Source: Thermoanaerobaculia bacterium (GTDB lineage Bacteria; Acidobacteriota; Thermoanaerobaculia; Gp7-AA8). From it: a DNA stretch of 64,000 bases. The notes under the pieces were generated by a model. It was not told where the DNA came from. It saw nothing but the letters and a program-made list of their open reading frames with translations, and did no database searches. The position numbers and the translations under genes were made by a program. This document shows positions 8,996-42,805 of the stretch, one piece after another (the stretch's first letter is position 1; every line of letters starts with the position of its first letter). Where the stretch lies: NCBI GenBank assembly GCA_036375075.1, contig DASUSN010000216.1, forward strand, positions 10,302 through 74,301. The letters are read 5' to 3'.

Positions 8996-10231
8996 CTAAA
9001 GGACACCGTCGGGACGCACGCGCAGGAAGAACGTGCAGGCCTTGCCGGTCTTGGACTCGACCCATACAGAACCCGCGTGCGCGACCGCGAATTCGCGCGT
9101 CCGGAACAACCCGCGGCCGGTGCGGTCGGGCGACGAAGGGTTCCACGTGAACGACGGCTCGAAGATCGCCTGCCGCAGCGGCTCGGGGACCATCGCACCG
9201 TTGTCCATGACGAAGAACAGCAGCAGCGGCTTGCCCTTGTGCTCCATCCAGCGGACGCCGATGACCACCTGCCCGCTGGCGGGCACGTAGTGCAGCGCGT
9301 TCTCCATCAGGATGGCGAGCGAGTCCGCGAGCTGCTCGTGATCTCCGAAGCGCTCCTCGAGCTCCTGGACGTCGATATCGAGGCGGATGCCTTTGAGGTC
9401 GGCATGGGCACGGAAGCGCTCGGCGACGCGACGGACGACCTCGGTCACGGTCGGCACCGGCCGCACGGCGAACGACGCTTCCTCGACTTCCGGAGCAAGC
9501 TCGAGCGACGACAGCACCTGGTCCAGCGACGACGTGGCGTCGGCGAGGAAATGATCGTTCTTCGAGCTCGCCGCGGCGTCGAGGGAGTCGCGCAGGGCCC
9601 GCAGAGGTCCGAAGACGGTCTCGCGGACGTACGTCACGAACGAGGCGTGGGCCTCGTTCATCGGATCGGTATGGCGGAAGACCAGCGCCGCGCCGCTCGC
9701 TCCGCCGGACATCGGCACGAGCGTGAAGATGAAGTTGCGGTTGCCGATGCGCACGCCGGCGCTCGTCGGGATCGATAGATCGCCGACGCGAATGCCGGTT
9801 TTCGCTTCGATGGCGGAAAGCTGGGAGAGCTCGGCCTGCGTCGCGTCGAAGAGCTTCTTCGCGTCGTCGGAGACGAACTTCACGCTGCGGTCCGGTCCGA
9901 CGAGGATCGACGCGCCGCCGGCGGCGACGAGCAGGTTCACGACACTGGTGATCGCGGGCGATGCGGATTCGACCGGGAACTGGACGACGGGCGCCTTCGG
10001 GAACGGGTCCTCGGCGTGCGCCGAGACGATGACGGCCTGACGGCCGGAGTCTCCGCGCGATGAAGTAGGGGCCGGTGCCGGCGGCGCCTGCACGGGCGGC
10101 GGCTCTGCGACCGGTGGCTTCGTCTCCGCCATCTGCTGCGCCGGACCGCTCTTCCTGCGCGGCTTGTCGCATTTGCCGCAGAGGATGCCCTCCGTCACCT
10201 CACCGCCGCACATGAAGCATTTGCGCGCCAT
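8996..10231 (-). CDS. Histidine-kinase-like ATPase (HATPase_c) protein with N-terminal C4 zinc ribbon and Pro-rich linker; no sensor TM and no cognate response regulator nearby
   Basis: N-term CFMCGGEVTEGILCGKCDKP. C-term N-box/G-boxes: ENALHYVP, VMDNGAMVPEP, GRGLFRTREFAVAHAGSVWVES. Putative H-box around NEAHASFVTYVRE. Confidence 0.6.
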   Translation of the reverse strand: MARKCFMCGGEVTEGILCGKCDKPRRKSGPAQQMAETKPPVAEPPPVQAPPAPAPTSSRGDSGRQAVIVSAHAEDPFPKAPVVQFPVESASPAITSVVNLLVAAGGASILVGPDRSVKFVSDDAKKLFDATQAELSQLSAIEAKTGIRVGDLSIPTSAGVRIGNRNFIFTLVPMSGGASGAALVFRHTDPMNEAHASFVTYVRETVFGPLRALRDSLDAAASSKNDHFLADATSSLDQVLSSLELAPEVEEASFAVRPVPTVTEVVRRVAERFRAHADLKGIRLDIDVQELEERFGDHEQLADSLAILMENALHYVPASGQVVIGVRWMEHKGKPLLLFFVMDNGAMVPEPLRQAIFEPSFTWNPSSPDRTGRGLFRTREFAVAHAGSVWVESKTGKACTFFLRVRPDGVL

Positions 10232-10288
10232 AGGACCGTCGAGTGTACGTCAACTGAGGTAGAGTCTGCCCGATTTTGGCCCGAGAGG

Positions 10289-10392
10289 CAGGGGACAGGG
10301 GACAGGGCGCAGGGCGCAGAAGACCGCCGCACTCCCACGTCGTGGGCAAGGCGGGGGCCTTCTGTCCCCTGCGCCCTGCGCCCTGCCCCCTG
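10289..10392. repeat. Inverted arrays of 7-bp tandem units (GGGGACA/GGGCGCA x4 versus their complements x4) around a 36-bp spacer in the divergent promoter region between the HK-like gene and hbd
   Basis: caggggacaggggacagggcgcagggcgcagaag ... cttctgtcccctgcgccctgcgccctgccccctg. Confidence 0.55.
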
Positions 10393-10425
10393 ATTTCCCG
10401 GGGACCTTCTCAGGAGCGAAACGAA

Positions 10426-11274
10426 ATGAAAAACATCGTCGTGATCGGCGGCGGCACCATGGGCAACGGCATCGCCCACACGGCCGCGGCCAGCGGCTTC
10501 GAAGTCACGCTCGTCGACGTCAACGAGGCGATTCTCCAGCGCGCGGTCTCCACGATCACTGCAAACCTGCAGCGCGGCGTGGACAAGGGAAAGATGACGG
10601 CGGAGGAGCGCGACGCGGTCGTGGGGCGCATCCGCACGAACACCGAGCTCCCGTCGATCGCCGACGCGGACATCGTCATCGAGGCGATCATCGAGAAGCT
10701 CGAGGCCAAAACGGACCTCTTCGCGAAGCTCGACTCGATCACGAAGCCGGAGTGCATCCTGGCGTCGAACACCTCGTCGATCTCCATCACCAAGATCGCG
10801 GCGGCCACGCAACGTCCGGACAAGGTCATCGGCATGCATTTCATGAATCCGGTGCCGGTGATGACGCTCGTGGAGGTAATCCGCGGCATCGCCACCTCGG
10901 ACGAGACGTGGGTGAAGGTCGAAGACCTCGCCAAGCGCATGGGCAAGACGGCGATCGAGGTGAACGACTATCCCGGCTTCATCTCCAACCGCGTGCTGAT
11001 GCCGATGATCAACGAAGCGATCTTCTCGTTGTACGAAGGCGTGGCCACGCGCGAGGCGATCGACGGCGTGATGAAGCTGGGCATGAATCACCCGATGGGA
11101 CCGCTCACGCTGGCGGACTTCATCGGCCTCGACGTCTGCCTCGCCATCCTGCGCGTGCTGGAGCAGGGATTCGGCGATCCCAAATACCGGCCGTGCCCGC
11201 TCCTCGTCAAAATGGTCGATGCCGGATGGCTTGGCCGCAAGAGCGGCCGCGGCTTCTACGATTACCGTAAATAA
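10426..11274 (+). CDS. hbd: 3-hydroxybutyryl-CoA (3-hydroxyacyl-CoA) dehydrogenase
   Basis: MKNIVVIGGGTMGNGIAHTAAASGFEVTLVD (NAD Rossmann) and conserved C-terminal 3HCDH domain. AGGAG RBS 8 nt upstream of ATG 10426. Confidence 0.85.
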   Translation: MKNIVVIGGGTMGNGIAHTAAASGFEVTLVDVNEAILQRAVSTITANLQRGVDKGKMTAEERDAVVGRIRTNTELPSIADADIVIEAIIEKLEAKTDLFAKLDSITKPECILASNTSSISITKIAAATQRPDKVIGMHFMNPVPVMTLVEVIRGIATSDETWVKVEDLAKRMGKTAIEVNDYPGFISNRVLMPMINEAIFSLYEGVATREAIDGVMKLGMNHPMGPLTLADFIGLDVCLAILRVLEQGFGDPKYRPCPLLVKMVDAGWLGRKSGRGFYDYRK

Positions 11275-11334
11275 AGTGTGACCCGAACCGCAATTGGCCT
11301 CAGCGCCTTTGTGTTCTAATCCGCCGAAACCACC

Positions 11335-13188
11335 ATGCTCTGTCAGACCTGCAGCGCGTACAACGACGACGAGCGGGAGTTCTGCTTCCGCTGTCAGAAC
11401 AAGCTCCTCGTCCTCTCCGGTGTCAACGCCTTCGAGGAAGACGAGCTCGAAGACTACGAAGAAGAGGAAGACCTCTCTCTCGACGAGCACCTGCTCGAGC
11501 GGGTGAGCGCCCTCGAAGAGATCGTGAAGCGGTCCGCGGAGACGATCCGTTCGCTCGTCGACGCGGTGCAGAAGCACGAGCGCGCGATCTTCGTCAACCA
11601 GACCGGCCTGCTGTCGGTCAAAGAGATCCTCGAGAAGAAGAACGTCGTCACGAGCGACGAAGTGGTCGAGCTCTGGGAATCGAAGATGGGCGAGCAGATG
11701 CTCGCCCTGGAAAAGAAGCAGCGCTTCACCGAGCGGAAGGACCGCATGGTGTCGCTGTTCCGCGGCGAGAAGCGCGAGCGGTTCCTGATCCTCGTCGCCG
11801 ATTCCGAAGCGGCGTTCGACGGCTTCGATCCCGATCGCGGGATGAAGCACCTCGAAGAAGCGTTCCGACTCGACCGCGACAACTACGAGCTCTCGTTCTT
11901 CCTCGGTGAGATGTTCTTCAACGACGGCAATCTCGACCGCGCGAAGGCGTATCTCGAGCGCACGCTGGAGGTGCAACCCGACCACTTCGACGCCGCGGTC
12001 TTCTACGGCGTGCTGCTGCACGAGCAGCAGGACCTGAAGGGCGCCGAGCGCTGGCTGCGCCGCGCCATCCAGATCTCGCAGGAGTCGTTCCTCCCGTACT
12101 TCTCCCTGGGCGCGATCTACGCGCGGAAGGGGAAGCTGCTCCGCGCCCAGAAGTTCCTCGAGAAGGCCATCCAGCTCGAGGCGATTCCGCAGGCGTACTT
12201 CCTGCTCGGAACGATCTTCTACGAGAAGGGCCAGCTCGAGCGGGCCATCCGCTCGTTTCAGGCGGCGCTGAAGCTCGATCCCGACTACGAGGAAGCGATC
12301 TACCACCTCGGCCTCTGCTATCTCGACCGCAACTGGAACCGCAAGGCGATCGAGTGCTTCCAGGAAGCCCTGGAGCTCAATCCGAACAAGATGGAGTACC
12401 AGCAGGCGGTCAAGATCTACGAGGGCATCTCCGGCCACATGCCGGTCGAGGGACCGGCCGCGCAGGCGATGACCGAGGCGGAGTCGCTGACGAGCGACGG
12501 GCAGTACGCCGAAGCGCTCGATCACTACCGCCGCGCCTCGGAGGTCGAGCCGGACAACGTGAACGTGCTGCTGCCGTACGCGCTGCTCTGCTCGCACCTG
12601 GACATGAACTCCGAGGCCATCGCGGTGGCGCGGCGGATCCTGAAGCACCGGCCGGCGGAAGTCGTCGCCGCGGCAGCGTACACGACGCTCGTCGAGGCGC
12701 TGCGCGCGGAAGGCAACTTCAAGGAAGCCAACAAGGTCCTCGAGGACATGCTGCGCGACTACACCTCGAACTACGCGAAGTCGATCGCGTACTACGAGAA
12801 GGCGTACAACCTCGCGGAGATGGAGGAGAACCTCGACGAGGCGCTGGAGAGCGCGCAGCTCGCCCTCCGCTACTCGCCGAAGGAGCTCCGCCAGTTCCCG
12901 CTCGCGGCTCTCGGCTGGGTGTACTTCAAGCGCCGCGACTTCAAGAGCGCCGTCGACTTCCTGACGAAGTCCGCGGACCTCGGGCCGACCCCCACGAACC
13001 TGATGCACCTCGGCATGGCGCTGCTGGAGAACGGCGAGAAGGACCGCGCCCGGCAGGTGTTCCGCCGCGCGAAGAGCTTCAAGACCAAGGGCGCCGGACT
13101 GGAGGAGAAGATCCTCGAGCAGGTGCGCAGCGCAACGAAGCTCATCGACCGCCTGCACCAGCGGCGCCGCAAAGTCGCGAAGACCTAG
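11335..13188 (+). CDS. TPR-repeat protein with N-terminal zinc ribbon
   Basis: 617 aa. CQTCSAYNDDEREFCFRCQ at the N-terminus, then acidic stretch, coiled region, then many TPR units (AIYHLGLCYLDRNWNRKAIECFQEALELNP etc.). Confidence 0.6.
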   Translation: MLCQTCSAYNDDEREFCFRCQNKLLVLSGVNAFEEDELEDYEEEEDLSLDEHLLERVSALEEIVKRSAETIRSLVDAVQKHERAIFVNQTGLLSVKEILEKKNVVTSDEVVELWESKMGEQMLALEKKQRFTERKDRMVSLFRGEKRERFLILVADSEAAFDGFDPDRGMKHLEEAFRLDRDNYELSFFLGEMFFNDGNLDRAKAYLERTLEVQPDHFDAAVFYGVLLHEQQDLKGAERWLRRAIQISQESFLPYFSLGAIYARKGKLLRAQKFLEKAIQLEAIPQAYFLLGTIFYEKGQLERAIRSFQAALKLDPDYEEAIYHLGLCYLDRNWNRKAIECFQEALELNPNKMEYQQAVKIYEGISGHMPVEGPAAQAMTEAESLTSDGQYAEALDHYRRASEVEPDNVNVLLPYALLCSHLDMNSEAIAVARRILKHRPAEVVAAAAYTTLVEALRAEGNFKEANKVLEDMLRDYTSNYAKSIAYYEKAYNLAEMEENLDEALESAQLALRYSPKELRQFPLAALGWVYFKRRDFKSAVDFLTKSADLGPTPTNLMHLGMALLENGEKDRARQVFRRAKSFKTKGAGLEEKILEQVRSATKLIDRLHQRRRKVAKT

Positions 13189-13192
13189 CGTC

Positions 13193-16186
13193 TCAGCGCA
13201 CCGCGCGGCGGCGGATCGGGGTGCGGGTGCCGCGCAGCTTCATCGTCGGATCGCCGAAGAGGAGCAGCGTCCGGCGGACGTCGGGGTCCGCCGTCGCGCG
13301 TTGGGCGGCGATCGTCGCCTGGCCGAGGGTCCGGCCGGAGCTCAAGGTGGCGAGGAGCGCTTCGTTCGCGGGCACCTGGCCGCTCGTCTCGGTGAGAGTC
13401 GAGAGCGCCCACACCGCAGCCGCGCCGCCGTCCTCGTTGCGCAGCAGCGCCTCGGCCAGCGACTCCTGCGCGAGGTCGTGGAAGTAGCCGTTGAGGCATG
13501 TCATCGCGATCACCAGCGGCAGAGGTGCGCCGTCGCCCGCGGACGCCGCGTCGGCTCGCGCGAAGAAGCCGGCGCTCTCCCACATCTCCACCGAGCCGTG
13601 TCCGACGAAGTCGATGATGCCCGCGCCGTTCGACCACGTCTGCAGCAGGTTCTGGCGTGCGGCAACGACCCCCTCGGCATCGACGTCGATGTGTGCCGTC
13701 GTCAGCGCGGAGCGATGCCCCTCGAAGGCTCCGCTGCCGCTGACGAACACCACGTCGCCCGTGGCCGCATCGCCGGTCTCGTACGCCACGATCTTCGCCA
13801 CCATCGCCTGCAGCTCGCCGCTCGTGCGCGCCGGCAGGCGGCCGATGGCGATGTCGGCGATACCGTCGTCGTCGAAGTCGGTGAACCATGCATCCGAGGG
13901 CGTGCGCTGCAGCGCGGTGTCGACGAGCTTCACCGGGATGACGTCCGCCGCCCCGCCGCCGACATGGTCCCGCGGATCGTACGAGCCGTCGCCGGCGAGC
14001 AGGATGGCGCGCGGGCGCGTGACGCTTGCAAAGGCACGGATCGCCGCGGGGTCCTTCGCGCCGAAGCTGAACTCGTCGTAGATCTCCTCGACCGCCAGCA
14101 GCGCGGCGTCCTCGCGCCGTGCGGCGAGCGGCGCGAGCGCCTGCAGCATCGCCCGCGGAGCGACGATCGCGAACGCGCCGTGCTTCAGCGCGTGCACCAT
14201 GGTCGGAAGGTTCTGCTCCACACCCGCCGGCGCGAGTACCTTCGCTGCGACAGCGACCGTGCGCACACCGGGGCCGCGCACGTCGACGACGTCGGCCGCG
14301 GCCGCGAGCTGCCGCGGCGCCTCAGGGTCGGTGATGTCGAATGCCACGAGCTGCTTGCCGCCGGCACCGCCGAGGCGGACGCGGGTTCCGCCGGGGGCGG
14401 TGAAGAGCAGCGCGCCGTCCGCGAGGACGTACTTGCGCGCATACGTCACGCGCACCGCTTCGACCGCGCTCACATCCTCGGAGCCGTTCTGCGCCAGGAG
14501 CACGACCTCGTTTGCGCCGTCGCGCAGCCATGCGGTGTCGACCGTGAACGTCGCGTGCTGCCGCGCCTGTCCTTCGAAATCGATCGTGCCCGCGGCGTGG
14601 CCGTTGAGCGTCACCGCGATCCGATGCGCTCCGAGGGTGGCGCCCTGCACCGTCAGTGCGAGCTCCGCCGTCGCCGCGGAGCGATCCACATCCGCGAGAC
14701 GCACCGTCTGCTTCGCGGGCAAGGCAGGGTCGTTCGTGATCACGGGACCGAAGAAGCCGTCGCCGTCCTCGCTCTGCAGCGTGGCGGCGAAGATCGACTT
14801 CTCGCGCAGCTCCACGGTCGCAAGGAAGCCGCTGGCGTCGTGCATCGGTGCGGCCGACATCGGCTCCGCGACGGTCCGCGCACCGCGGCCTTGCTGCCAC
14901 GTCAGCCAGTACACACGCGTGCCGCTGGCGGGCGTGTCGAGCGGCGTTCCATAGAAGCGAATGGCCGTCGGCGTGACCACGATCGGGAGCTCACGCCCTT
15001 CTTCCCACAGCCGCAGCGCGTCACGATCGGCGCCGGCGGGAATCGGCAGCTCGTGAATGCCGGGCGTGGTGACGGCGATCTTCAGCGCCTCGTGCGCGGC
15101 GAGCTCGAAGTTGTACCCCGCCGCCGGAGCGGCGGCGTTCGCGCGCAACCGCTCGCGCGTGAAGCCGCGCTTCACACCGGAGCGCTGCGCGAGCTCGCTC
15201 AGCTTCGGGGCAGGAACCGTCGTCTCCGCGATCCGTCCGGACGCGGGCGCGATCGGCCCGTGCCATTCGCGCGCGCCGCGGAGATCGATCTCCTCGATCC
15301 AGTACTCGTCCGCCGCGGCGTCATCGAGCCAGCGATAGGTGCTGCCGGTGGAAGACGCAGCATTGACGAAGAAGGTCGAGCCGGCGATCGGCTGGGGCGT
15401 GATGCAGACACGCTCCCCGTTCGAAACACGCCACACCCGGTATCCCAGGTTGCCAACGGCGCGGCCGGTGGTCCAGGTGACGAGCGTGCTGCCGCCGTCG
15501 CGGATTGCGCCCATCGAGTCCATCTCCACCGCCGTCGGCGCCAGCGTGGACGCGTAGAAGGTGTCGGCAAAGCTGTCGTCCTTCGTCCGCACCTGCAGGC
15601 CGAGGCCTGCGCGGCCGGCGGCGGTGATGGTGTTGTCGGTGACGGTGGCGACGAGGGTGCCGTTGATGCTCAGGCGCTTCGACGCGTCCGTGACGGAGAA
15701 GACGATCTCGTTGTCGCTGGCGAGGCCGACGTTCAGCGCCGTCGTCGTGCCCGAGGCGAGCACCGTCGGCACGCCGCTCACATAGCGGATGATGGCGTAC
15801 GACGACTGTGCGTTGACGTACGCGACGTAGCCGTTCCCGCCCGTGATCCGCGCCAGCAGCTCGACGTAGTTGTCGGCATTGGCGGAGATGAACGAGGCCG
15901 TGATGCCGACCGTGTACTCGGCGGACGGCGGCACGGCGGCGTTCGTGTAGCGGTCGGTGCCGTTCGTCTTGTCCGGGGTGATCTCGCCGCCCTGCAGCCG
16001 CAGCCCCTGCCCCTGGATGCGCGTCCAGGCGCCGCCGGTATCGGGCGCGTGGCTCTCGAGAAAAGTGCCGTTGGTGCCCGTGAACGCGTCGCGCACAAAC
16101 TCCGTCTGTGCCTGCAGGGAGACTGCAGACAGAAGGAGACACAGCAGTCGGGCGATCTTCTGGAGCACAAGCGGACCCTGCCGCAA
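13193..16186 (-). CDS. Secreted peptidase C25 (gingipain) family protein with large N-terminal lectin/LamG-like and beta-rich domains
   Basis: Signal peptide MRQGPLVLQKIARLLCLLLSAVSLQAQ. Catalytic-dyad context IDFVGHGSVEMWES ... VIAMTCLNGYF. C25 landmarks IAIGRLPARTS and LLFGDPTMKL. Confidence 0.7.
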   Translation of the reverse strand: MRQGPLVLQKIARLLCLLLSAVSLQAQTEFVRDAFTGTNGTFLESHAPDTGGAWTRIQGQGLRLQGGEITPDKTNGTDRYTNAAVPPSAEYTVGITASFISANADNYVELLARITGGNGYVAYVNAQSSYAIIRYVSGVPTVLASGTTTALNVGLASDNEIVFSVTDASKRLSINGTLVATVTDNTITAAGRAGLGLQVRTKDDSFADTFYASTLAPTAVEMDSMGAIRDGGSTLVTWTTGRAVGNLGYRVWRVSNGERVCITPQPIAGSTFFVNAASSTGSTYRWLDDAAADEYWIEEIDLRGAREWHGPIAPASGRIAETTVPAPKLSELAQRSGVKRGFTRERLRANAAAPAAGYNFELAAHEALKIAVTTPGIHELPIPAGADRDALRLWEEGRELPIVVTPTAIRFYGTPLDTPASGTRVYWLTWQQGRGARTVAEPMSAAPMHDASGFLATVELREKSIFAATLQSEDGDGFFGPVITNDPALPAKQTVRLADVDRSAATAELALTVQGATLGAHRIAVTLNGHAAGTIDFEGQARQHATFTVDTAWLRDGANEVVLLAQNGSEDVSAVEAVRVTYARKYVLADGALLFTAPGGTRVRLGGAGGKQLVAFDITDPEAPRQLAAAADVVDVRGPGVRTVAVAAKVLAPAGVEQNLPTMVHALKHGAFAIVAPRAMLQALAPLAARREDAALLAVEEIYDEFSFGAKDPAAIRAFASVTRPRAILLAGDGSYDPRDHVGGGAADVIPVKLVDTALQRTPSDAWFTDFDDDGIADIAIGRLPARTSGELQAMVAKIVAYETGDAATGDVVFVSGSGAFEGHRSALTTAHIDVDAEGVVAARQNLLQTWSNGAGIIDFVGHGSVEMWESAGFFARADAASAGDGAPLPLVIAMTCLNGYFHDLAQESLAEALLRNEDGGAAAVWALSTLTETSGQVPANEALLATLSSGRTLGQATIAAQRATADPDVRRTLLLFGDPTMKLRGTRTPIRRRAVR

Positions 16187-36026: not shown

Positions 36027-36972
36027 GACCCGCTTTCCAGCCCAGACCGCGGGCCACCGCCGCGGCGGGCGTGCGCGGTTTGCCCGGACGCTGCATCTCC
36101 AGGATGCGCAGCGCGCCTTCGCCGCAGGCGATCACGACGCCGTCGTCGATCCCGAGGATCGTGCGCGGACTCGCGGTGCCGTCCGCGGGGCGCATATCCG
36201 TCAGCTTCAGGTCGCGAAACGTGATGCCGGGCCAGGGATCGAACGCGCGGAAGCGGTCGTAGATCGTCTGCGCCGGCTCGTCGAAGGTCATCTCCCCCTC
36301 GCGCTTGTCGATCTTCGGCGCGACCGTCGCGCGCGCGTGGTCCTGCTCCGTCTCCACGGCCGTGCCGTTCTCCACCTCGCGCAGCACCGCCGCCAGCGCA
36401 GCGCCGCCGATCGCCGACAGCCGCTGCGCCAATTGCGGCGTGCGCTCGTCCGCGCCGATCTCCGTCGTCTCGATGCGCAGCATCGGACCGTGATCCAGCT
36501 CCTCGTCCACGCGCATGATCGTCACGCCCGTGACCTTGTCGCCGGCCTCGATGGACCGCTGGATCGGCGCCGCCCCGCGCCACAGCGGCAGCACCGAGCC
36601 GTGGACGTTCAGAAACCCGTGCCTCGGAATGTCCAGCAGCGCCTTCGGCAGGATCTTCCCGTACGCGACGACCACCCCGCAGTCGGGGCGCACGCGCGCC
36701 ACTTCGCCGAGAAACTCCTCGTTCCGGACCCGCGGCGGCTGCAGCAGCGGCAGCCCCAGCTCCCGCGCCCGCACCGCCACCGCCGGCGCCTGCATCTTCA
36801 TCCCCCGCCCCGCGGGCTTGTCCGGCTGCGCGACGACGAGCACGACCTCGTGCTCGCGCGCCACGGCGTCCAGCGAGGGGACGGCAAACTCGGGAGTCCC
36901 GAAGAACACGATCCGCACGGGCGCGGATTCTATCTTTGGTACGCGGAGGCACTCCAAACGCCCAACTGTCAT
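36016..36972 (-). CDS. fmt: Methionyl-tRNA formyltransferase
   Basis: VRIVFFGTPEFAVPSL...NVHGSVLPLWRGAAPIQRSI are Fmt motifs. The usual upstream def is absent and replaced by the repeat/island boundary. Confidence 0.85.
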   Translation of the reverse strand: MTVGRLECLRVPKIESAPVRIVFFGTPEFAVPSLDAVAREHEVVLVVAQPDKPAGRGMKMQAPAVAVRARELGLPLLQPPRVRNEEFLGEVARVRPDCGVVVAYGKILPKALLDIPRHGFLNVHGSVLPLWRGAAPIQRSIEAGDKVTGVTIMRVDEELDHGPMLRIETTEIGADERTPQLAQRLSAIGGAALAAVLREVENGTAVETEQDHARATVAPKIDKREGEMTFDEPAQTIYDRFRAFDPWPGITFRDLKLTDMRPADGTASPRTILGIDDGVVIACGEGALRILEMQRPGKPRTPAAAVARGLGWKAGHVL

Positions 36973-37000
36973 CCCAAGCGTCGATGGGATTCTTAGGGGA

Positions 37001-37027
37001 GTGCGGAGGGCAGTCGATCGCCTCCGC
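37001..37027. repeat. REP-like palindromic element GTGCGGAGG-(n)-CCTCCGC (family also at 46006-46068, 46099-46119 and 46272-46290)
   Basis: gtgcggagggcagtcgatcgcctccgc. Copies at 37001-37019 and 46099-46119 share GTGCGGAGG[AG]GCAGTCGATC (19 of 21 positions), same orientation. Confidence 0.5.
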
Positions 37028-37172
37028 TTTTGTAGTTACACGGTCGCGCGACCGGCGCTGCGCGCACGTCGGCTCACGCCCTCGCATAGATCCGAATGGC
37101 ACCCAGTAGCGGGCATGGCGCTCCTATCAGCATGGGTTGTGCTTATCCTGTCAAACAGCGAGCCGCCGGTGC

Positions 37173-39419
37173 TCAGCCGGTTCCGACCGGGGCCGTGCTC
37201 ACGAGTGACTGCGTTCCTGAGGCATCTGGCTGCACAACCACTGGTTGTACGACCATGGGTTGCACGACGATTGGCTGTGCGACGACTGGCTGCGCCACCA
37301 CCGGATGCGCGATGACTGGCCGCACGACGACCGGGCGCACGACGACCGGCTGCGGCGTAGCCGGTAGAGGGGCAGGTGGCGGAGGCGCAGCCGGTGGCGG
37401 CGCGGGTGACTCGACCGCACTTTTCGCTTTCGCGAGCAGGTTCTCGAACTCCTTCGGCTTCCAACGACGCAGGCTCGTCAGGGTCGAATCGGTTGCTGCC
37501 ACTTGGTAAGCGGCGGGCTGAAGATGCAGTGCGAGTTCGAGGTGCTGCCAGCCGAGAGTGAGATAAAGAGTCCTGTCCACCGGTATCGTAGTTTTCGCCG
37601 CGAGGACGCCGAAGGTGGAGGCGACATTGAATTGCGTGTCCGCGTTCGGACCGTGTCTGTAGCCCAACAGGGCCAGATATGCGTCGTGGGGGCCGATTGT
37701 CCCGACTTCCGCGGCGATGCCGATCCTCATCACGTCGACCGGTGGCCGGGCATACGAAATGTACGTCTTGATGCGTCTGCAGTCCGCCTCGGTGCGGTGG
37801 ATCGCGCCGGCATCCGCCTTTTCCATTGCCTTGAGCAGAGTGTCGGCTTCGGCGAGTGCTTTCCCGATGTCGCCGCGTTGATAGTGGATGTACGCCAGCC
37901 GGTAGGAAGCAGCGAAGAGGACCGGGGCGGCTGGTCCATCACTGTGCGGCATGCGGTTCTTGGCGACCTCGAACTGCTCGATGGCAGGGCCTAGAAGCTG
38001 CGCGTCGTGTAGCATCGCTCCAAAATTTGCGCGTGCCGCCGCGTGCTCCGGGTCATTCAGCAGCGCGCCGACAAGCAACTCCTGCGCACGCTTGTTATCT
38101 GAGCCCATCACCGATTCGGCGGCCTTGTTCATCGCATCGCTCACCCAGCTGGCCGTTCCGGTCATTGCCCGAATCCGGACCGGGTGGCGAATCTCGAGCT
38201 GCAGCAACTGGTACAGCAACCAGACCGCCGCCGAATCGAGGAGGTCCAAGTATGGTGCCGTATCGGCGGGTGCGGGTGCAATCGTCAGATCCAGTGGCTC
38301 GGGCGCCTTCTTCGGCGCCTCGGGCGGCTTCGTGCCGAAGTCGCGCTGCCAGAGCGTGGTCGTGCTCGCGACTTTGTTCCGTTCGCTCAGTACGAGCGTC
38401 AGGCCCGCTCCTTTTTCATCGATCGCCGGATGGGTACAGCCGGTGAGGATGAGCGTCCGGCGCCAGTAGATTAGCGACAGCAGTGACAGCAGGCCTTTTA
38501 GCCAGCCGAATACTGAGGGGATCGCTGAGGTGATCGCAGCCGGGACCTCGAAGCTCGTGAGCGTGGCCGACGGGAACTGCACGTTCGAAGGCTGCAGTCG
38601 CGTCAGCGCAACGAGTTGTTGCTGCAGATACAGCGACGCGCCCGCCCCAGGAAATGCAGTATCACCCGTCAGATTCTCCACGCGCAGGTGCGGGTAGAGC
38701 ACGAAATGTCGCAGCAACAGCGGGGCGAGCAACGCGACCAAAATAAGCACGAGCGCTGTGTTGACCGGGTGGAGCACAATGACGTTCAGCCAGCGTGGCA
38801 ACGTGAGGTAACTCAGCTCCGCCGGAATCTCTTTCACCGGCGGCTTCTTCGCGGCCTCGGTCAGCTGCGTCAGCGCCTCGCCGTGCATCCCGGCGCGTGA
38901 GAGACCCAATGCAGGCGCGAACGGGTCGACCAGCGGGCGAAGCTCCACGGGGATCTCCCGAGCCGGATATTTTTTTGCGGTCGCTTGCAGCGCCTGAAGG
39001 GCTTGGTCGTACAGCTTCAGCCTGTACAGAACAAGCGCCTCAGCAAATGGGTCGGCAGGTTTCACTGCCGCCGCAGACGCCGTCGTTGGTAAAGCCTGCG
39101 GATCAAGCGCGAGCGCCGCCAGCTTCTCAGCTTGCGCGCGTTGCTTGTCGACGCTCCCAAAATTCTTTGCGAGCTCGAGGTGGCGTGCAATGTCCGCGCG
39201 CGTGGTGGCGATTTTCTCGATGCCCTCCCGTGAGCACGGCTCGGCCGGATCGATCTTCAGCCGTGCGGCATACGCCTGCTCCGCATCGGCGTAGCGCCTC
39301 GCCTTCAGCAGGTCATCGGCAGCGGCGCATGGATTGGCGCGCACCGCAACAGGCAGCAGCAAGAGTACGGCGATGACGACAGGTTTTGCTATCGAACGCA
39401 CGGGCCACCTCGGTTGCAC
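37173..39419 (-). CDS. Large signal-peptide-bearing membrane protein with TPR-like segments and C-terminal Pro-Val pentapeptide (PVVxQ) tandem repeats; low-GC island gene
   Basis: 748 aa. N-terminal signal peptide MQPRWPVRSIAKPVVIAVLLLLPVAVRA, internal TM helices (NVIVLHPVNTALVLILVALLAPLLL; VFGWLKGLLSLLSLIYW), TPR-like blocks, C-terminal PQPVVVRPVVVRPVIAHPVVAQPVVAQPIVVQPMVVQPVVVQP (15-bp DNA tandem repeats at 37200-37330). GC visibly lower than flanks. Confidence 0.55.
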   Translation of the reverse strand: MQPRWPVRSIAKPVVIAVLLLLPVAVRANPCAAADDLLKARRYADAEQAYAARLKIDPAEPCSREGIEKIATTRADIARHLELAKNFGSVDKQRAQAEKLAALALDPQALPTTASAAAVKPADPFAEALVLYRLKLYDQALQALQATAKKYPAREIPVELRPLVDPFAPALGLSRAGMHGEALTQLTEAAKKPPVKEIPAELSYLTLPRWLNVIVLHPVNTALVLILVALLAPLLLRHFVLYPHLRVENLTGDTAFPGAGASLYLQQQLVALTRLQPSNVQFPSATLTSFEVPAAITSAIPSVFGWLKGLLSLLSLIYWRRTLILTGCTHPAIDEKGAGLTLVLSERNKVASTTTLWQRDFGTKPPEAPKKAPEPLDLTIAPAPADTAPYLDLLDSAAVWLLYQLLQLEIRHPVRIRAMTGTASWVSDAMNKAAESVMGSDNKRAQELLVGALLNDPEHAAARANFGAMLHDAQLLGPAIEQFEVAKNRMPHSDGPAAPVLFAASYRLAYIHYQRGDIGKALAEADTLLKAMEKADAGAIHRTEADCRRIKTYISYARPPVDVMRIGIAAEVGTIGPHDAYLALLGYRHGPNADTQFNVASTFGVLAAKTTIPVDRTLYLTLGWQHLELALHLQPAAYQVAATDSTLTSLRRWKPKEFENLLAKAKSAVESPAPPPAAPPPPAPLPATPQPVVVRPVVVRPVIAHPVVAQPVVAQPIVVQPMVVQPVVVQPDASGTQSLVSTAPVGTG

Positions 39420-39874
39420 GGATTGTTTCCGGCATTATGCAATAGGAGGGACCGCGGCGCGAACTTCCCGGCCGTAAGGCAAATACTCTGCTTTTTACGC
39501 AACGGGGCCCTCAACGCCGCATAGCAGCCTGGCCTCGCGCCTGCGACGTGCGTACCTCTCCGGGAGAGATGACTGGGCATTTCATCGCACGCGCCGCGTT
39601 GCGCGCCGCTGCATGTGCGAACGCCCGCGTGGCGGAAGCGGGTTGGTCAGGTGCCCGTCCGTTCGGGATGGCGTCGGCAACTAATGCGGTCAGGACGACC
39701 GCGCGGCCGCATCGTTCAAGAGGTCTTCCAACTCGTTCTTTCGGCGTCGCTGAACACGCGTGGTGAGGGTTCCGGCCGCTCACGCATGATGGTGGGGTGC
39801 GCCTCGCTCGCCTGTAGCACGGTGCATTTGGCGGCCGGAGCGTATTCCGCCCTGCAGGGCCTGCCCGACGCAAA

Positions 39875-41359
39875 GTGACGCGGCCGAACAACTCGCAGCA
39901 GAACAAGGATGCGGTTGATGCCGTCTACACGGCATCAGCGACACCACCCGACTACATCATGATCCTCGGCTCGATCGACATCGTTCCGCACCAGGATCTG
40001 CTCAACCCTCTCTTCGGCGGTGACGACGACGACGAGCACGCCTGGGGCGATCTGCCGTATGCCTGCGATGCGCCGTACAGCCAGAACATCAGCGACTTCA
40101 CTAAGCCGACGCGCGTAATCGGCCGCTTGCCGGACATTCAGGCGATGAAGAACACCGCTTATTTCGTGAAGTTGCTTGACAATGCCGCGAAATGGGTCTC
40201 GCTCGCACCGTCGAGCTATGACGATTACTTCGCCGTTTCTGCATTAACGTGGCAGAAGTCAACGAAGCTCAGCGTCAAGAAGACCTTCGGCTCGAACGAG
40301 AAGGTGTTCGTCTCGCCGACGGCCGGACCTCCGTGGAACGCACCGGACCTCGCGCCGCTTGCGCATTTCATCAACTGTCACGGCAACTCCGGACGGTCTG
40401 CGTTTTACGGCGAAGATCCGAACGCCACGGGCGAAGCGAAATACCCCATCGCCCATCAGACAATTCACGTACGCAACTTTATCGAACCCGGAACCGTGGC
40501 CGCGGTCGAGTGCTGCTTCGGTGCCGAACTCTACAAACCGCACGCGGACATCGACCCGGAACACGGGATTTGCCAAGAGTACCTGTACGACGACGCTTAC
40601 GGCTTCTTCGGCGCCACGACCATCGCGTATGGTCCCGCGGTCGGCCATGGTGCGGCGGACATTATCTGCGCCGCCTTCCTCAAGCACGTCCGTGCCGGCG
40701 ACTCGCTCGGCCTAGCGGCATTGGCGGCTCGTCAGGATTTCATCAAAGCCTGCGATGTAATGGATCCGATCGACCTGAAAACCCTCGGCCAGTTCAATCT
40801 CCTCGGCGATCCGTCGATCCATCCCGTTCATGCGGCTGCGAAAGCAACGGGCAAGACGCTCGCGGCGGCAAAGAAGTCTCCCGAGGCGCTTAACACCGCG
40901 CGTGCAGAACAGCCGGCGCTCGATGACGGTTATCGTCAACGGCGCGAGGATCTGCGGGCGAGCGCGGCCCGTGTCGCGGGGAAGGTGTCGATGGCGTCGA
41001 CACACGTACCCGATCCGCTGATGGACTCACGTGCCCGCGCCGCTGCACAGGCGGCCGGTATCACGCCGTCGGATGTGAAGACGTTCGAGTTGCAGAGGCC
41101 GACCAACGCGCCGAGAAGGAAGGCTATGGCCGGTATGAAGGCCGTCATGGCGCCCCCGGCCCCTGCGAGGATCTGCGTCGTCACCGGCCGGACTTCGGAT
41201 CAACAGCCTCCGGCAGCACATCAAGTCCCGGCGAAAGGCAAAGGTGTGACAAAAGGGAAGGACGGTGGGCATCCCGGACCGTCACCCTTCGTCGTGGCGG
41301 TCATGAAAGAGAGGCTCGACGGCAGCATGACCATGGTCCGGAAGGTGTTCAGCAAGTAA
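39875..41359 (+). CDS. Gingipain-like (peptidase C25 / clan CD) cysteine peptidase without signal peptide; low-GC island gene
   Basis: Same landmark order as the secreted C25 at 13193..16186: PDYIMIL (catalytic-domain start), VIGRLP, His-Gly dyad context FINCHGNSG, Cys context AVECCFG 45 aa later, and LLGDPSI. No N-terminal signal peptide; GTG 39875 or ATG 39958 are possible starts. Confidence 0.6.
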   Translation: MTRPNNSQQNKDAVDAVYTASATPPDYIMILGSIDIVPHQDLLNPLFGGDDDDEHAWGDLPYACDAPYSQNISDFTKPTRVIGRLPDIQAMKNTAYFVKLLDNAAKWVSLAPSSYDDYFAVSALTWQKSTKLSVKKTFGSNEKVFVSPTAGPPWNAPDLAPLAHFINCHGNSGRSAFYGEDPNATGEAKYPIAHQTIHVRNFIEPGTVAAVECCFGAELYKPHADIDPEHGICQEYLYDDAYGFFGATTIAYGPAVGHGAADIICAAFLKHVRAGDSLGLAALAARQDFIKACDVMDPIDLKTLGQFNLLGDPSIHPVHAAAKATGKTLAAAKKSPEALNTARAEQPALDDGYRQRREDLRASAARVAGKVSMASTHVPDPLMDSRARAAAQAAGITPSDVKTFELQRPTNAPRRKAMAGMKAVMAPPAPARICVVTGRTSDQQPPAAHQVPAKGKGVTKGKDGGHPGPSPFVVAVMKERLDGSMTMVRKVFSK

Positions 41360-41369
41360 TATTGCGGCG

Positions 41370-41600
41370 ATGCGTGTTCGCGGGACCGTTGTCCACCGGC
41401 TCTTCGGCAAGAACTCGAAGAGCGAGCACACGGCGGTCTATCTCGAGACGCCATCGGGCGACTCATACCGCCTCCAACGTAGCGGCGGGAACCCGTTTTT
41501 CGACGAAACACTCGAGTTGCTCGTGGGTAAGACAATTGAGGGAAGCGGCACGTTGCGTGGGAAAAGCCTTTATCTCGGGAGTTGGAAAGAACTCAAGTAA
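41370..41600 (+). CDS. Small hypothetical protein (76 aa) immediately downstream of the C25-like peptidase; low-GC island gene
   Basis: MRVRGTVVHRLFGKNSKSEHTAVYLETPSGDSYRLQRSGGNPFFDETLELLVGKTIEGSGTLRGKSLYLGSWKELK. 10-nt gap after the peptidase stop, same strand, same low-GC composition. Confidence 0.4.
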   Translation: MRVRGTVVHRLFGKNSKSEHTAVYLETPSGDSYRLQRSGGNPFFDETLELLVGKTIEGSGTLRGKSLYLGSWKELK

Positions 41601-41679
41601 CGTAGAGCCGACCGGTTTCGCGGCCGGCTTCCCAACACCAAGGCTCTAGCAAGCGAGTCGGCAGCGGCGAGATCGACGC

Positions 41680-41946
41680 CTACGTGGTCGTGGTCGGGGG
41701 GGTGTCCGCCATGGTGGTCGTGCTCGTGTCCGTCGGCGACATCTGCTCGTAGGGGCCGGCCGTGCCTTCCACGCCGGTGGATGGCTGCGGCGGCACCTGG
41801 CCGGACGCGGCGCCGGACGGCGTTTCCGTCTGCGACGACGGCGGGTTGGTCACGTCGGGCGGCGCGTTCTGGTAGTCGCGGGGCACGGGCTCGCCGCGGC
41901 AGGCGGCCAGGGCCACGAGCATCGCGACTACAATCATCCTTCGCAT
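41680..41946 (-). CDS. Small lipoprotein with Thr/Pro-rich tail
   Basis: MRRMIVVAMLVALAAC (lipobox) ... TDTSTTTMADTPPTTTT. Start codon overlaps the divergent start at 41945. Confidence 0.45.
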   Translation of the reverse strand: MRRMIVVAMLVALAACRGEPVPRDYQNAPPDVTNPPSSQTETPSGAASGQVPPQPSTGVEGTAGPYEQMSPTDTSTTTMADTPPTTTT

Positions 41947-42796
41947 GACAAGGATGAGCTTCAACGCACGTGCCACCGCGCTTCTGCTGCTGCTCGCCAT
42001 GCCCGTCTTCGCACAGGTCGCGGAGGGCGACCGTCACTACGCCGCCCGCGCGGAAGGCGCGTCCGGGGCGCGCGCGAAAGCCGAGCACATCGACGCCGCG
42101 ATCGCCGCCTATCAGAAGGCGATCGCGGCCAATCCGAACGACATCGAGGCGCACTGGAAGCTCCTCCGCTCCTACCGTTACAAGGGTGCGTACGTCGCCG
42201 CGAACGCCGAGCAGAAGAAGCAGATCTACGGGATGGCAAAGACCGCGGGCGAGAAGGCCCTCGCGGTCGTGAACGCCCGCCTCGGCACGAATGCGAAGTC
42301 GAGCGAGCAGCAGGTGGCCGAGGCCGCGAAGAGGGTCCCGGGCGCCGGCGAGGTCTTCTTCTGGGACTCGGTGAACTGGGGGGAGTGGGCGCTCGCGTAC
42401 GGGAAGATGGCCGCGGCCCGGCAGGGCGCGGCGGACCGCATCAAGCGCGGCGCGACGATCGCCCTGCTCGTCGACCCGCGCATGGAGCTGGGCTCGCCGG
42501 CCCGCGTCCTCGGCCGCCTGCACGACCAGACCCCGCGCATCCCGTTCGTGACCGGCTGGGCCTCGTCGAAGGAAGCGGTGCGGTTCCTGAACGAATCGCT
42601 GAAGATCGACCCGACGAACAAGCTCACGCTCGTGTTCCTGGCCGAGGCGATGGTGGCGGCGGATTCGTCGAAGAAAACCCAGGCGCTGCAGATGCTGCGC
42701 TCGGCCGTCAACACGCCCGTCCATCCCGACTACCCCGTCGAAGACGCCGCGTCGATCGAGGACGCGAAGGCGCTGCTCAGGAAATGGGGCAGTTGA
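41945..42796 (+). CDS. Secreted TPR-like repeat protein
   Basis: Signal peptide MTRMSFNARATALLLLLAMPVFAQV; helical repeat blocks (AIAAYQKAIAANPNDIEAHWKLLRSY...). Confidence 0.5.
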   Translation: MTRMSFNARATALLLLLAMPVFAQVAEGDRHYAARAEGASGARAKAEHIDAAIAAYQKAIAANPNDIEAHWKLLRSYRYKGAYVAANAEQKKQIYGMAKTAGEKALAVVNARLGTNAKSSEQQVAEAAKRVPGAGEVFFWDSVNWGEWALAYGKMAAARQGAADRIKRGATIALLVDPRMELGSPARVLGRLHDQTPRIPFVTGWASSKEAVRFLNESLKIDPTNKLTLVFLAEAMVAADSSKKTQALQMLRSAVNTPVHPDYPVEDAASIEDAKALLRKWGS

Positions 42797-42805
42797 GCCG
42801 GCGGC

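What the first reader, a model, noticed from the sequence alone, without database searches (positions are those of the whole stretch)
37173..41650. Low-GC island encoding a signal-peptide-less gingipain-like (clan CD) peptidase, a tightly linked small ORF and a divergent giant TPR/membrane protein with a Pro-Val repeat tail
Seen in sequence: by eye, base composition drops from about 70% GC to about 53-58% between about 37.45 kb and about 41.64 kb. Sampled 60-nt lines at 38461, 40201, 40261 and 41521 give 53-57%, versus 68-70% at 41641 and 43021. The 494-aa product of 39875..41359 has the C25 landmark order (PDYIMIL, VIGRLP, H-G in FINCHGNSG, C in AVECCFG 45 residues later, LLGDPSI). This is the same order as in the bona fide secreted C25 peptidase at 13193..16186, yet it has no signal peptide or pro-domain. 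A 76-aa ORF follows after 10 nt. Its position is reminiscent of cognate cytoplasmic inhibitors of cysteine peptidases (the staphostatin/staphopain arrangement is the established analogy). A 748-aa protein with signal peptide, TM helices, TPR-like blocks and a 15-bp tandem-repeat C-terminus (PVVxQP)n is transcribed divergently from a 455-bp low-GC intergenic region. Inference: a horizontally acquired protease cassette. It could be an intracellular caspase-fold protease with an immunity/inhibitor partner, possibly a conflict or regulated-proteolysis module, with the large TPR/membrane protein as partner or substrate. I do not recognise this three-gene arrangement as a described system.
Basis: partly seen in the sequence, partly recalled or inferred. 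Interest (0 to 1): 0.78.

Follow-up and report, generated by a model that had tools for sequence, protein, structure and literature searches.

The report
Truncated cytoplasmic gingipain-like protease with OB-fold partner
The region holds a copy, missing its first ~57 codons, of a widespread but unstudied two-gene unit: a gingipain-shaped cysteine protease that stays inside the cell, followed by a tiny barrel-shaped partner protein; the large neighbouring TPR gene is not part of it.

Summary
The three ORFs, the 10-nt gap, the 15-bp repeat tail and a compositional island are real. The GC drop is smaller than claimed: 62.6% against 67.2%. It is clearest at third codon positions (0.70-0.75 against 0.89-0.93).

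The 76-aa ORF follows the peptidase on the same strand in 73 of 80 genome loci from more than ten phyla (median gap 15 nt). It is fused to the peptidase in two metagenomic proteins, and it is under purifying selection (dN/dS about 0.09). It is predicted to be an OB-fold barrel with an invariant SKSEH loop. The top structural match is the OB-fold protease inhibitor potempin A, but ordinary OB folds score almost as well.

The 748-aa TPR protein is never linked to this pair elsewhere.

The window copy lacks the family's N-terminal 57 residues (strand-helix-strand of the first subdomain). All 80 comparison loci have this segment.

Best reading: a latent intracellular protease plus a cognate binding or inhibitory partner, here probably crippled. 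The mechanism is inferred, not shown.

The parts
39869..41359 (+). 5'-truncated gene for a cytoplasmic gingipain-fold (C25-like, clan CD) cysteine peptidase. The ORF is called from GTG 39875 (494 aa) and equals NCBI HEX6100775.1, annotated 'hypothetical protein'. It corresponds to family residues ~58 to the end.
40379..40384 (+). Codons for His169-Gly170, the catalytic His of the clan CD dyad, within HFINCHG.
   Evidence: Invariant in 82 of 82 aligned family members. Coordinates.
40511..40516 (+). Codons for Cys213-Cys214, the candidate catalytic Cys, within VECCFG.
   Evidence: Both Cys are invariant in 82 of 82 members. Coordinates.
41370..41600 (+). 76-aa partner gene. The product is a predicted five-stranded OB-fold barrel (b1-b2-b3-helix-b4-b5).
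41415..41429 (+). Codons for the Ser16-Lys17-Ser18-Glu19-His20 loop between strands b1 and b2. This is a candidate contact or reactive loop.
   Evidence: Invariant in 20 of 20 sequences of A3. K, S and E are at least 90% conserved in 73 genome loci.
39420..39868 (.). Junction region upstream of the truncated gene. It holds no remnant of the family's N-terminal coding sequence.
   Evidence: Three-frame translation and tblastn with four N-termini gave only chance-level hits. Homology to the relative L090 ends at 39468. No sigma-70-like promoter was found.
37173..39419 (-). 748-aa membrane or secreted protein with weak TPR similarity and a Pro-Val repeat tail. It shares the atypical composition but is not a conserved partner of the pair.
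   Evidence: GC3 is 0.737. No co-occurrence in 80 loci. Only 4 homologs. Different neighbours in L090, L091 and L092. Hydrophobic segments.
37226..37353 (-). 15-bp tandem repeat, 8.5 copies, encoding the (PVVxQ)n C-terminal tail of the 748-aa protein.

Best explanation
What it is. Window 39869-41600 is a horizontally acquired copy of a self-contained two-gene module. The module is scattered thinly across many bacterial phyla, one archaeal MAG and rhizobial plasmids.

Gene 1 encodes a cytoplasmic cysteine peptidase of about 530 aa. It has the two-subdomain gingipain (C25) catalytic fold, invariant His-Gly and Cys-Cys motifs, no signal peptide and no pro-domain. It also carries its own alpha/beta C-terminal domain.

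Gene 2 often overlaps gene 1 or lies within about 15 nt of it. It encodes a 75-90-aa OB-fold barrel. Its invariant residues (the SKSEH loop, LRR, GGNPF-D, LVGK) lie in or next to the loops b1-b2 and b3-helix. In OB folds this is the usual binding face, so that placement is an inference from topology.

How it most likely works (inferred). The small protein binds the peptidase stoichiometrically and keeps it latent or gated, probably by placing the conserved Lys-containing loop in or near the active-site cleft. Loss or displacement of the partner would release proteolysis. This is the logic of a protease-inhibitor safety pair or of a toxin-antitoxin or conflict module.

This window's copy. The peptidase gene has lost the codons for its first ~57 residues: strand b1, a long helix and strand b2 of the N-terminal subdomain. 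It is therefore probably inactive or impaired. The rest of the gene and the partner gene are still intact and show no sign of decay. The divergent 748-aa TPR gene is a compositionally similar neighbour, not a component.
For: Shown:
- Family size and architecture.
- Pfam C25 scores above threshold for homologs: 28-37 bits. 19 of 21 members match at E<=0.01.
- H228, G229, C269, C270, D319 and R416 (P0009 numbering) are invariant in 82 sequences.
- No hydrophobic N-terminus.
- Gene pairing in 73 of 80 loci on the same strand, median gap 15 nt, 10 overlapping. Three of the seven loci without a hit are cut by contig ends, and L079 is recovered with a second query.
- No other conserved neighbour.
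- Fusion proteins P0238 (on 4 contigs) and P0240 join the peptidase and the small domain.
- The partner is a confidently modelled OB fold. Its best PDB match is potempin A, an OB-fold inhibitor co-transcribed with its protease (PMC9890683).
- Purifying selection on the partner, dN/dS about 0.09.
- Truncation: homology starts at 39869. The missing residues 1-57 have pLDDT 97-98 and form b1-a1-b2 in the model. 78 of 80 loci align from residue 10 or earlier, and the other two from residue 31.
- The same sequence occurs in an independent assembly at 100% identity over 6059 bp.
- Foreign composition: GC3 0.70-0.75 against 0.89-0.93.
Against: - No interaction, inhibition or proteolysis has been shown or modelled.
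- The small domain also occurs away from the peptidase, in HD-domain proteins and in a secreted tandem protein. This suggests a more general ligand-binding role.
- There are no PADLOC, PHROG or viral-contig hits. Neighbourhoods are mostly housekeeping, so a defence or TA role is unsupported by context.
- The truncated window gene keeps 98 of 103 highly conserved columns. It is no more diverged from outgroups than its intact sisters. It may therefore still function, or the truncation is very recent.
Confidence: 0.45

Rival explanations
1. The small OB-fold protein is not an inhibitor. It could be a sensor or adaptor subunit that binds a ligand or nucleic acid and then activates or targets the peptidase. 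It could also be the peptidase's dedicated substrate, cleaved at the conserved Lys-containing loop.
For: OB folds are typically ligand or nucleic-acid binders, and PriB, SSB, RPA and Stn1 score almost as well as potempin. The domain also occurs fused to an HD phosphohydrolase domain and in other architectures without the peptidase. Conserved Lys, Arg and Phe residues lie in the loops.
Against: Net charge of the domain is not consistently basic: median +1, range -6 to +10. A 1:1 gene pairing with overlapping or tightly spaced genes, plus in-frame fusions, fits a stoichiometric complex better than a turned-over substrate. Co-transcribed OB-fold protease inhibitors have a documented precedent.
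Confidence: 0.3
2. The window copy is fully functional. On this view the N-terminal 57 residues are dispensable or regulatory, and the 494-aa product is an active, perhaps deregulated, protease kept in check by the intact partner.
For: The 494-codon reading frame is intact. 98 of 103 highly conserved columns are retained. The rate is not accelerated relative to the sister sequences P0002 and P0003. The partner gene is intact. NCBI annotates the ORF as a CDS, not a pseudogene.
Against: The missing part is b1-a1-b2 of a four-stranded subdomain modelled at pLDDT 97-98. The gingipain match spans 305 residues, about the size of the whole two-subdomain catalytic region. None of 80 other loci lacks this segment. 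No recognisable Shine-Dalgarno or sigma-70 promoter precedes GTG 39875 or ATG 39959.
Confidence: 0.25
3. This is the first reader's model: a three-gene acquired cassette in which the 748-aa TPR/membrane protein is the partner or substrate of the protease-inhibitor pair.
For: The genes are adjacent and divergent, and the TPR gene has similarly atypical GC3, 0.737 against 0.745 and 0.701.
Against: No TPR748 homolog occurs in any of 80 loci carrying the pair. TPR748 has 4 homologs in all, and its relatives have unrelated neighbours. The TPR protein is predicted to be exported or membrane-bound, while the pair is cytoplasmic.
Confidence: 0.05
4. The enzyme is not a hydrolytic protease. It would instead be a transpeptidase or ligase, as seen for other clan CD enzymes (PorU sortase, GPI transamidase, asparaginyl ligases), and it would modify or attach the small protein.
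Confidence: 0.08

Closest known systems
Gingipains RgpB and Kgp of Porphyromonas gingivalis (MEROPS family C25, clan CD; Pfam PF01364)
   Different: 11-14% identity. A profile of the family finds no PDB sequence at E<=1. hhalign to the window's own canonical C25 aligns only the LGDP end. There is no signal peptide, no N-terminal pro-domain, no Ig-like domain and no T9SS C-terminal domain. Instead there is a distinct alpha/beta C-terminal domain and a dedicated small partner gene. The family is predicted to be cytoplasmic.
Staphopain-staphostatin operons (scpAB, sspBC) of Staphylococcus
   Same: A cysteine protease gene is followed immediately by a small cytoplasmic beta-barrel protein gene in the same operon.
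   Different: Staphopains are papain-fold (clan CA) and secreted. Staphostatins are eight-stranded lipocalin-like barrels. Here the partner is a five-stranded OB fold and the protease itself is cytoplasmic. No sequence relationship exists.
Potempins and KLIKK peptidases of Tannerella forsythia (PMC9890683)
   Different: Potempins are outer-membrane lipoproteins of 98-132 residues, encoded upstream of secreted metallo- and serine peptidases. Their inhibitory loops lie between b4 and b5, whereas the invariant loop here is between b1 and b2. Identity is 13%, and Z exceeds generic OB folds only marginally.
Latent cytoplasmic clan CD proteases: separase-securin, and CHAT proteases of CRISPR type III and CBASS-like systems (SAVED-CHAT, TPR-CHAT/Craspase)
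   Different: They have different subfamilies and domain architectures, with sensors fused or in large complexes. Securin is a disordered pseudosubstrate, not an OB fold. No CRISPR, CBASS or PADLOC link exists here.

Membership tests
Pfam PF01364 Peptidase_C25 / MEROPS C25 | Score at or above the Pfam gathering threshold (23 bits) | tested here: not met
   The window protein scores 15.2 bits, E 0.013, over the last 75 residues of the domain only. Full-length homologs do pass: P0009 28.2, P0238 36.3 (profile positions 10-373 of 374) and P0240 36.9 bits. 19 of 21 match at E<=0.01.
Pfam PF01364 Peptidase_C25 / MEROPS C25 | Gingipain-type two-subdomain catalytic fold | tested here: met
Pfam PF01364 Peptidase_C25 / MEROPS C25 | Complete catalytic domain (both subdomains present) | tested here: not met
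   The window copy lacks family residues 1-57, which form b1, a1 and b2 of the N-terminal subdomain.
Clan CD cysteine peptidases | Catalytic His (in His-Gly) followed by catalytic Cys, each after a beta-strand | tested here: met
   His169-Gly170 and Cys213/214 in the window protein. Both are invariant in 82 of 82 sequences. In the model the preceding strands are at 222-226 and 264-267.
Clan CD cysteine peptidases | Peptide-bond hydrolysis, and P1 specificity | not testable with these tools
Gingipains proper (secreted T9SS virulence proteases) | Signal peptide, N-terminal pro-domain, Ig-like domain and T9SS C-terminal domain | tested here: not met
   There is no hydrophobic N-terminus. Family proteins start directly at strand b1. 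The C-terminal domain is alpha/beta, not Ig-like.
Staphostatin-type inhibitors | Eight-stranded lipocalin-like beta-barrel | tested here: not met
   The model has five strands plus one short helix, which is OB-fold topology.
Potempins | OB-fold or eight-stranded barrel, co-transcribed with its target peptidase | tested here: met
Potempins | Lipoprotein signal and outer-membrane anchoring; demonstrated inhibition of the linked peptidase | tested here: not met
   No signal or lipobox is present. Inhibition is not testable here. Sequence identity is 13%.
Pfam PF19135 DUF5818 | Score at or above the gathering threshold (27 bits) | tested here: not met
   The window protein scores 12 bits, E 0.16. 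Only 4 of 20 relatives match at E<=1, with a best E of 0.0024.
Toxin-antitoxin or anti-phage defence systems | Match to a known defence-system model, or enrichment in defence islands or mobile elements | tested here: inconclusive
   PADLOC gave no hits for either protein. None of 25 candidate stretches in viral contigs was confirmed. PHROGs gave nothing. Contexts are mostly housekeeping, with one TIR gene and one integrase nearby. The pair is present on rhizobial plasmids. It is thinly scattered: 372 matching stretches in genomes of 185,579 species.
Toxin-antitoxin or anti-phage defence systems | Toxicity of one partner, neutralised by the other | not testable with these tools
   This requires expression experiments.

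The most novel reading that the evidence does not exclude
The peptidase and OB-fold pair is a previously unrecognised, horizontally mobile, two-component intracellular proteolysis switch. A gingipain-fold protease would be held latent by, or gated through, a dedicated OB-fold protein. It would act as a toxin-antitoxin, abortive-infection or stress-triggered module in soil and sediment bacteria of more than ten phyla. This would be the first cytoplasmic role for the C25 fold and a new class of OB-fold regulators of cysteine proteases.
Probability: 0.25. Interest if true: 0.75.

Novelty: new variant of a known kind. Interest (0 to 1): 0.5.

Why it matters
C25 peptidases are known almost only as secreted virulence factors and T9SS sortases of Bacteroidota. 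This family shows the same fold used inside the cell. It has more than 1,600 members and is always coupled to a tiny OB-fold protein, whose own family has 766 clusters at 50% identity. It occurs across Acidobacteriota, Verrucomicrobiota, Planctomycetota, Pseudomonadota, Nitrospirota and others, and on rhizobial plasmids. I found no literature on it.

If the partner is an inhibitor or gate, the pair would add a compact regulated-proteolysis or conflict module. It would also add a new scaffold for inhibitors of clan CD proteases. Cultured Rhizobium, Bradyrhizobium and Sinorhizobium strains carry it, so it can be tested directly.

For this particular window the significance is smaller. The copy is truncated at the 5' end and may be a decaying acquisition.

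Tried and rejected
- Three-gene cassette with the TPR protein: rejected.
- Remnant of the missing N-terminus, in other frames or elsewhere in the window: none found.
- Assembly artefact at the truncation point: unlikely, because an independent Logan contig is 100% identical over 36793-42851.
- Mobile-element boundaries: no tRNA genes in the window and no convincing flanking direct or inverted repeats.
- Promoter or terminator signals: no sigma-70-like promoter, and terminator-like sites at chance level. The hairpin after the small ORF is not significant, z -1.4.
- Known defence or phage families: PADLOC, PHROGs, the phage collection and viral contigs were all negative.
- Sequence link to solved structures: none for the single protein or for the family profile.
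- Relationship between the peptidase C-terminal domain and the small protein: none by hhalign.
- A third conserved neighbour: none. The shared neighbours of a beta-proteobacterial group are PNPOx and TetR genes (lineage synteny), and the alphaproteobacterial neighbour is a weak GDSL-like hit.
- The ferritin-like and radical SAM association is confined to Rhizobiales.
- Ubiquitin-like tag idea for the 76-aa protein: rejected. It is an OB fold, not a beta-grasp, and has no conserved C-terminus.
- Literature: 0 papers for DUF5818. Nothing relevant for Peptidase_C25 with defence, gingipain with anti-phage, gingipain-like with cytoplasmic/operon/inhibitor, or clan CD C25 intracellular.
Full report
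OBSERVATION.
- ORF 39875..41359 (+) encodes 494 aa from a GTG start. It contains HFINCHG (His169-Gly170) and VECCFG (Cys213/214).
- It ends in TAA. Ten nucleotides later a 76-aa ORF begins, at 41370..41600.
- A 748-aa ORF runs divergently at 37173..39419 (-). It has a hydrophobic N-terminus and an internal hydrophobic segment, and only weak sub-threshold TPR matches.
- Its C-terminal Pro-Val tail is encoded by a 15-bp tandem repeat at 37226-37353, 8.5 copies.

The GC claim is only partly right. The four quoted 60-nt lines are indeed 53-57% GC, but they are the low tail. The island averages 62.3-62.6% against 67.2% for the window, and its lowest 400-nt windows are 58-59%. The contrast is much sharper at third codon positions. 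GC3 is 0.737, 0.745 and 0.701 for the three ORFs. It is 0.89-0.93 for rsmB, fmt, the downstream lipoprotein-like ORF, the 283-aa TPR protein, the 1158-aa membrane protein, the canonical C25 gene and uvrD. So a compositionally foreign island spans about 37.17-41.60 kb. No tRNA gene or convincing flanking repeat marks its ends.

THE PEPTIDASE. On its own, the window protein matches Pfam Peptidase_C25 only below threshold: 15.2 bits against 23, E 0.013, over the C-terminal 75 residues of the domain. It has more than 1,637 homologs, nearly all 515-555 aa and nearly all called 'hypothetical'.
- 19 of 21 aligned members match PF01364 at E<=0.01.
- Full-length members pass the threshold with 28-37 bits, one of them over profile positions 10-373 of 374.
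- His-Gly, Cys-Cys, an Asp about 50 residues after the Cys, and one Arg in the C-terminal region are invariant in 82 sequences.
- The family has no hydrophobic N-terminus and starts directly at the first strand of the catalytic domain. It therefore has no signal peptide and no pro-domain.
- In place of the Ig-like and T9SS domains of gingipains, it has its own alpha/beta C-terminal domain after a variable linker.
- At sequence level it is far from canonical C25. The family profile finds no PDB chain. It aligns only the LGDP end of the window's own secreted C25 gene. That gene lies on the minus strand at 13193..16186 and scores 195 bits.

THE WINDOW COPY IS TRUNCATED. Every homolog carries about 60 residues, MxxKxIVTN...LIAADKxRGIxTR..., ahead of the point where the window protein begins. 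In the model these residues form strand 2-8, helix 10-37 and strand 40-46, at pLDDT 97-98. They are half of the four-stranded N-terminal subdomain.
- In the window, homology starts at 39869 (RKVTRPNNSQQNK against KAVTQPRNPKQNK). Upstream there is an in-frame stop, and no frame or other place in the window encodes the missing part.
- 78 of 80 genome loci align from residue 10 or earlier, and the remaining two from residue 31. The truncation is therefore peculiar to this copy.
- It is not an artefact of one assembly. An independent Logan contig is 100% identical over 36793-42851.
- NCBI annotates the 494-aa ORF as hypothetical protein HEX6100775.1 of a Thermoanaerobaculia MAG.
- Against simple decay: the frame is intact, 98 of 103 columns that are at least 95% conserved are kept, and identity to outgroups equals that of the intact sister sequences.
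- The truncation is therefore either recent or tolerated. I consider an impaired enzyme more likely, because core secondary-structure elements are missing.

THE SMALL ORF IS A GENUINE PARTNER. A homolog of the 76-aa protein lies downstream on the same strand in 73 of 80 loci. The median gap is 15 nt and ten pairs overlap. Three of the seven loci without a hit end at a contig edge, and at least one more (L079) is recovered with a second query.
- The loci come from Acidobacteriota, Verrucomicrobiota, Planctomycetota, Alpha- and Betaproteobacteria, 'delta' lineages, Nitrospirota, Actinomycetota, Gemmatimonadota, Latescibacterota, Bacteroidota and a Nitrososphaeraceae archaeon. There were 372 matching stretches among genomes of 185,579 species.
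- No other gene is conserved around the pair.
- Two metagenomic proteins fuse the peptidase and the small domain in one chain. P0238 is seen on four contigs. In P0240 the small domain replaces the C-terminal domain.
- Against an 85%-identical relative, the small ORF has dN/dS of about 0.09.
- A profile search finds 766 cluster representatives, mostly free-standing proteins of 75-110 aa.
- The model (pLDDT 89.8) has the topology b1-b2-b3-helix-b4-b5, an OB fold.
- Invariant residues include the SKSEH loop between b1 and b2, LRR at the end of b3, GGNPF-D before the helix, and LVGK before b4.

THE TPR PROTEIN IS NOT PART OF THE MODULE.
- No homolog accompanies the pair in any of 80 loci.
- The protein has four homologs in 5.8 billion sequences.
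- The 42%-identical homologs sit among unrelated genes.
- The 84%-identical relative shares DNA homology with the window only from 37170 to 39468. Its sequence on both sides is different.
- The TPR gene has the same atypical GC3 as the pair, so it may have arrived in the same or a similar event. That is co-location, not a conserved system.

MECHANISM (inferred). The evidence is obligate pairing, tight spacing, in-frame fusions, purifying selection, an OB barrel with an invariant Lys-bearing loop, and the absence of any fused sensor or other partner. Together these best fit a stoichiometric complex in which the small protein holds a cytoplasmic gingipain-fold protease latent or gates it. Known precedents are staphostatins, potempins and securin. 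Thin, cross-phylum scattering and plasmid copies in Rhizobium, Bradyrhizobium and Sinorhizobium are compatible with a toxin-antitoxin or conflict role. But PADLOC, PHROGs, phage and viral-contig searches are negative, and neighbourhoods are mostly housekeeping.

The main rival is that the OB protein is a ligand- or nucleic-acid-sensing activator or adaptor, or a substrate. The domain does occur in HD-domain proteins and in a secreted tandem protein without the peptidase. Its net charge is not consistently basic.

NOVELTY AND VERDICT. Automated annotation already labels cultured members 'C25 family cysteine peptidase', so the protease assignment is not new. The constant partnership with an OB-fold protein, the cytoplasmic location and the domain architecture are, as far as my literature searches go, undescribed. 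I rate it a new variant of a known kind, a protease plus a cognate small partner. It is of moderate interest at family level. The interest of this window is lower because its copy is truncated and because the proposed three-gene system does not exist.

Noticed in passing
L093 (Rhizobium sophoriradicis plasmid pCC511_1), L094, L039, L042, L037: In Rhizobiales the pair sits beside large ferritin-like proteins, a radical SAM protein, a DyP-type peroxidase-domain protein and conserved hypotheticals. This association was not seen in other phyla, although P0011's locus (L085) also has a divergent radical SAM gene upstream.
   Followed up: partly
proteins P0271, P0215, P0162, P0154: The small OB domain also occurs without the peptidase. 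It lies between an N-terminal HD domain and a shared C-terminal 'REDPEE..GD.VR.R.RG..F.QI.G' module (P0271; the latter module also in P0215 and P0162). It also occurs as a tandem pair behind a signal-peptide-like N-terminus (P0154). No PHROG or phage-genome match explains these.
   Followed up: partly
window 10400-12400: A second stretch with 1.5-kb GC minima of about 62% is comparable to the island studied here. The long ORF listed there (10195..13158, minus strand) has GC1 0.89 and GC3 0.63, so it is probably not the true reading frame.
   Followed up: no
window 13193-16186 (minus strand): This is the canonical C25 peptidase, 997 aa, with the C25 domain at residues 673-984 (195 bits). The plus-strand translation of these coordinates matches nothing.
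   Followed up: yes
window 41680-42000 (minus strand): A 106-aa ORF (called as 85 aa in the Logan contig) has a lipoprotein-like N-terminus (…AMLVALAAC…) and host-like GC3 of 0.907. It lies immediately right of the island and marks the island's right-hand compositional boundary.
   Followed up: no
window 41370-41600: The exact 76-aa partner sequence was found only in a Logan assembly, not among NCBI proteins. The neighbouring 494-aa and 742-aa products are in NCBI. The small gene therefore appears to be unannotated in the deposited MAG.
   Followed up: partly
L028, L041, L059: Three contigs of one beta-proteobacterial MAG (MFD02840.bin.1.387) each carry the pair with the same neighbours (PNPOx-like, TetR). 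This is either a multi-copy segment or strain variants binned together.
   Followed up: no
L087 12540-13706 and L088 11171-12415: A TIR-domain gene lies about 3 kb downstream of the pair in one locus, and a phage-type integrase about 1.5 kb downstream in another. These are isolated hints of a mobile or defence context that were not seen in the other annotated neighbourhoods.
   Followed up: no
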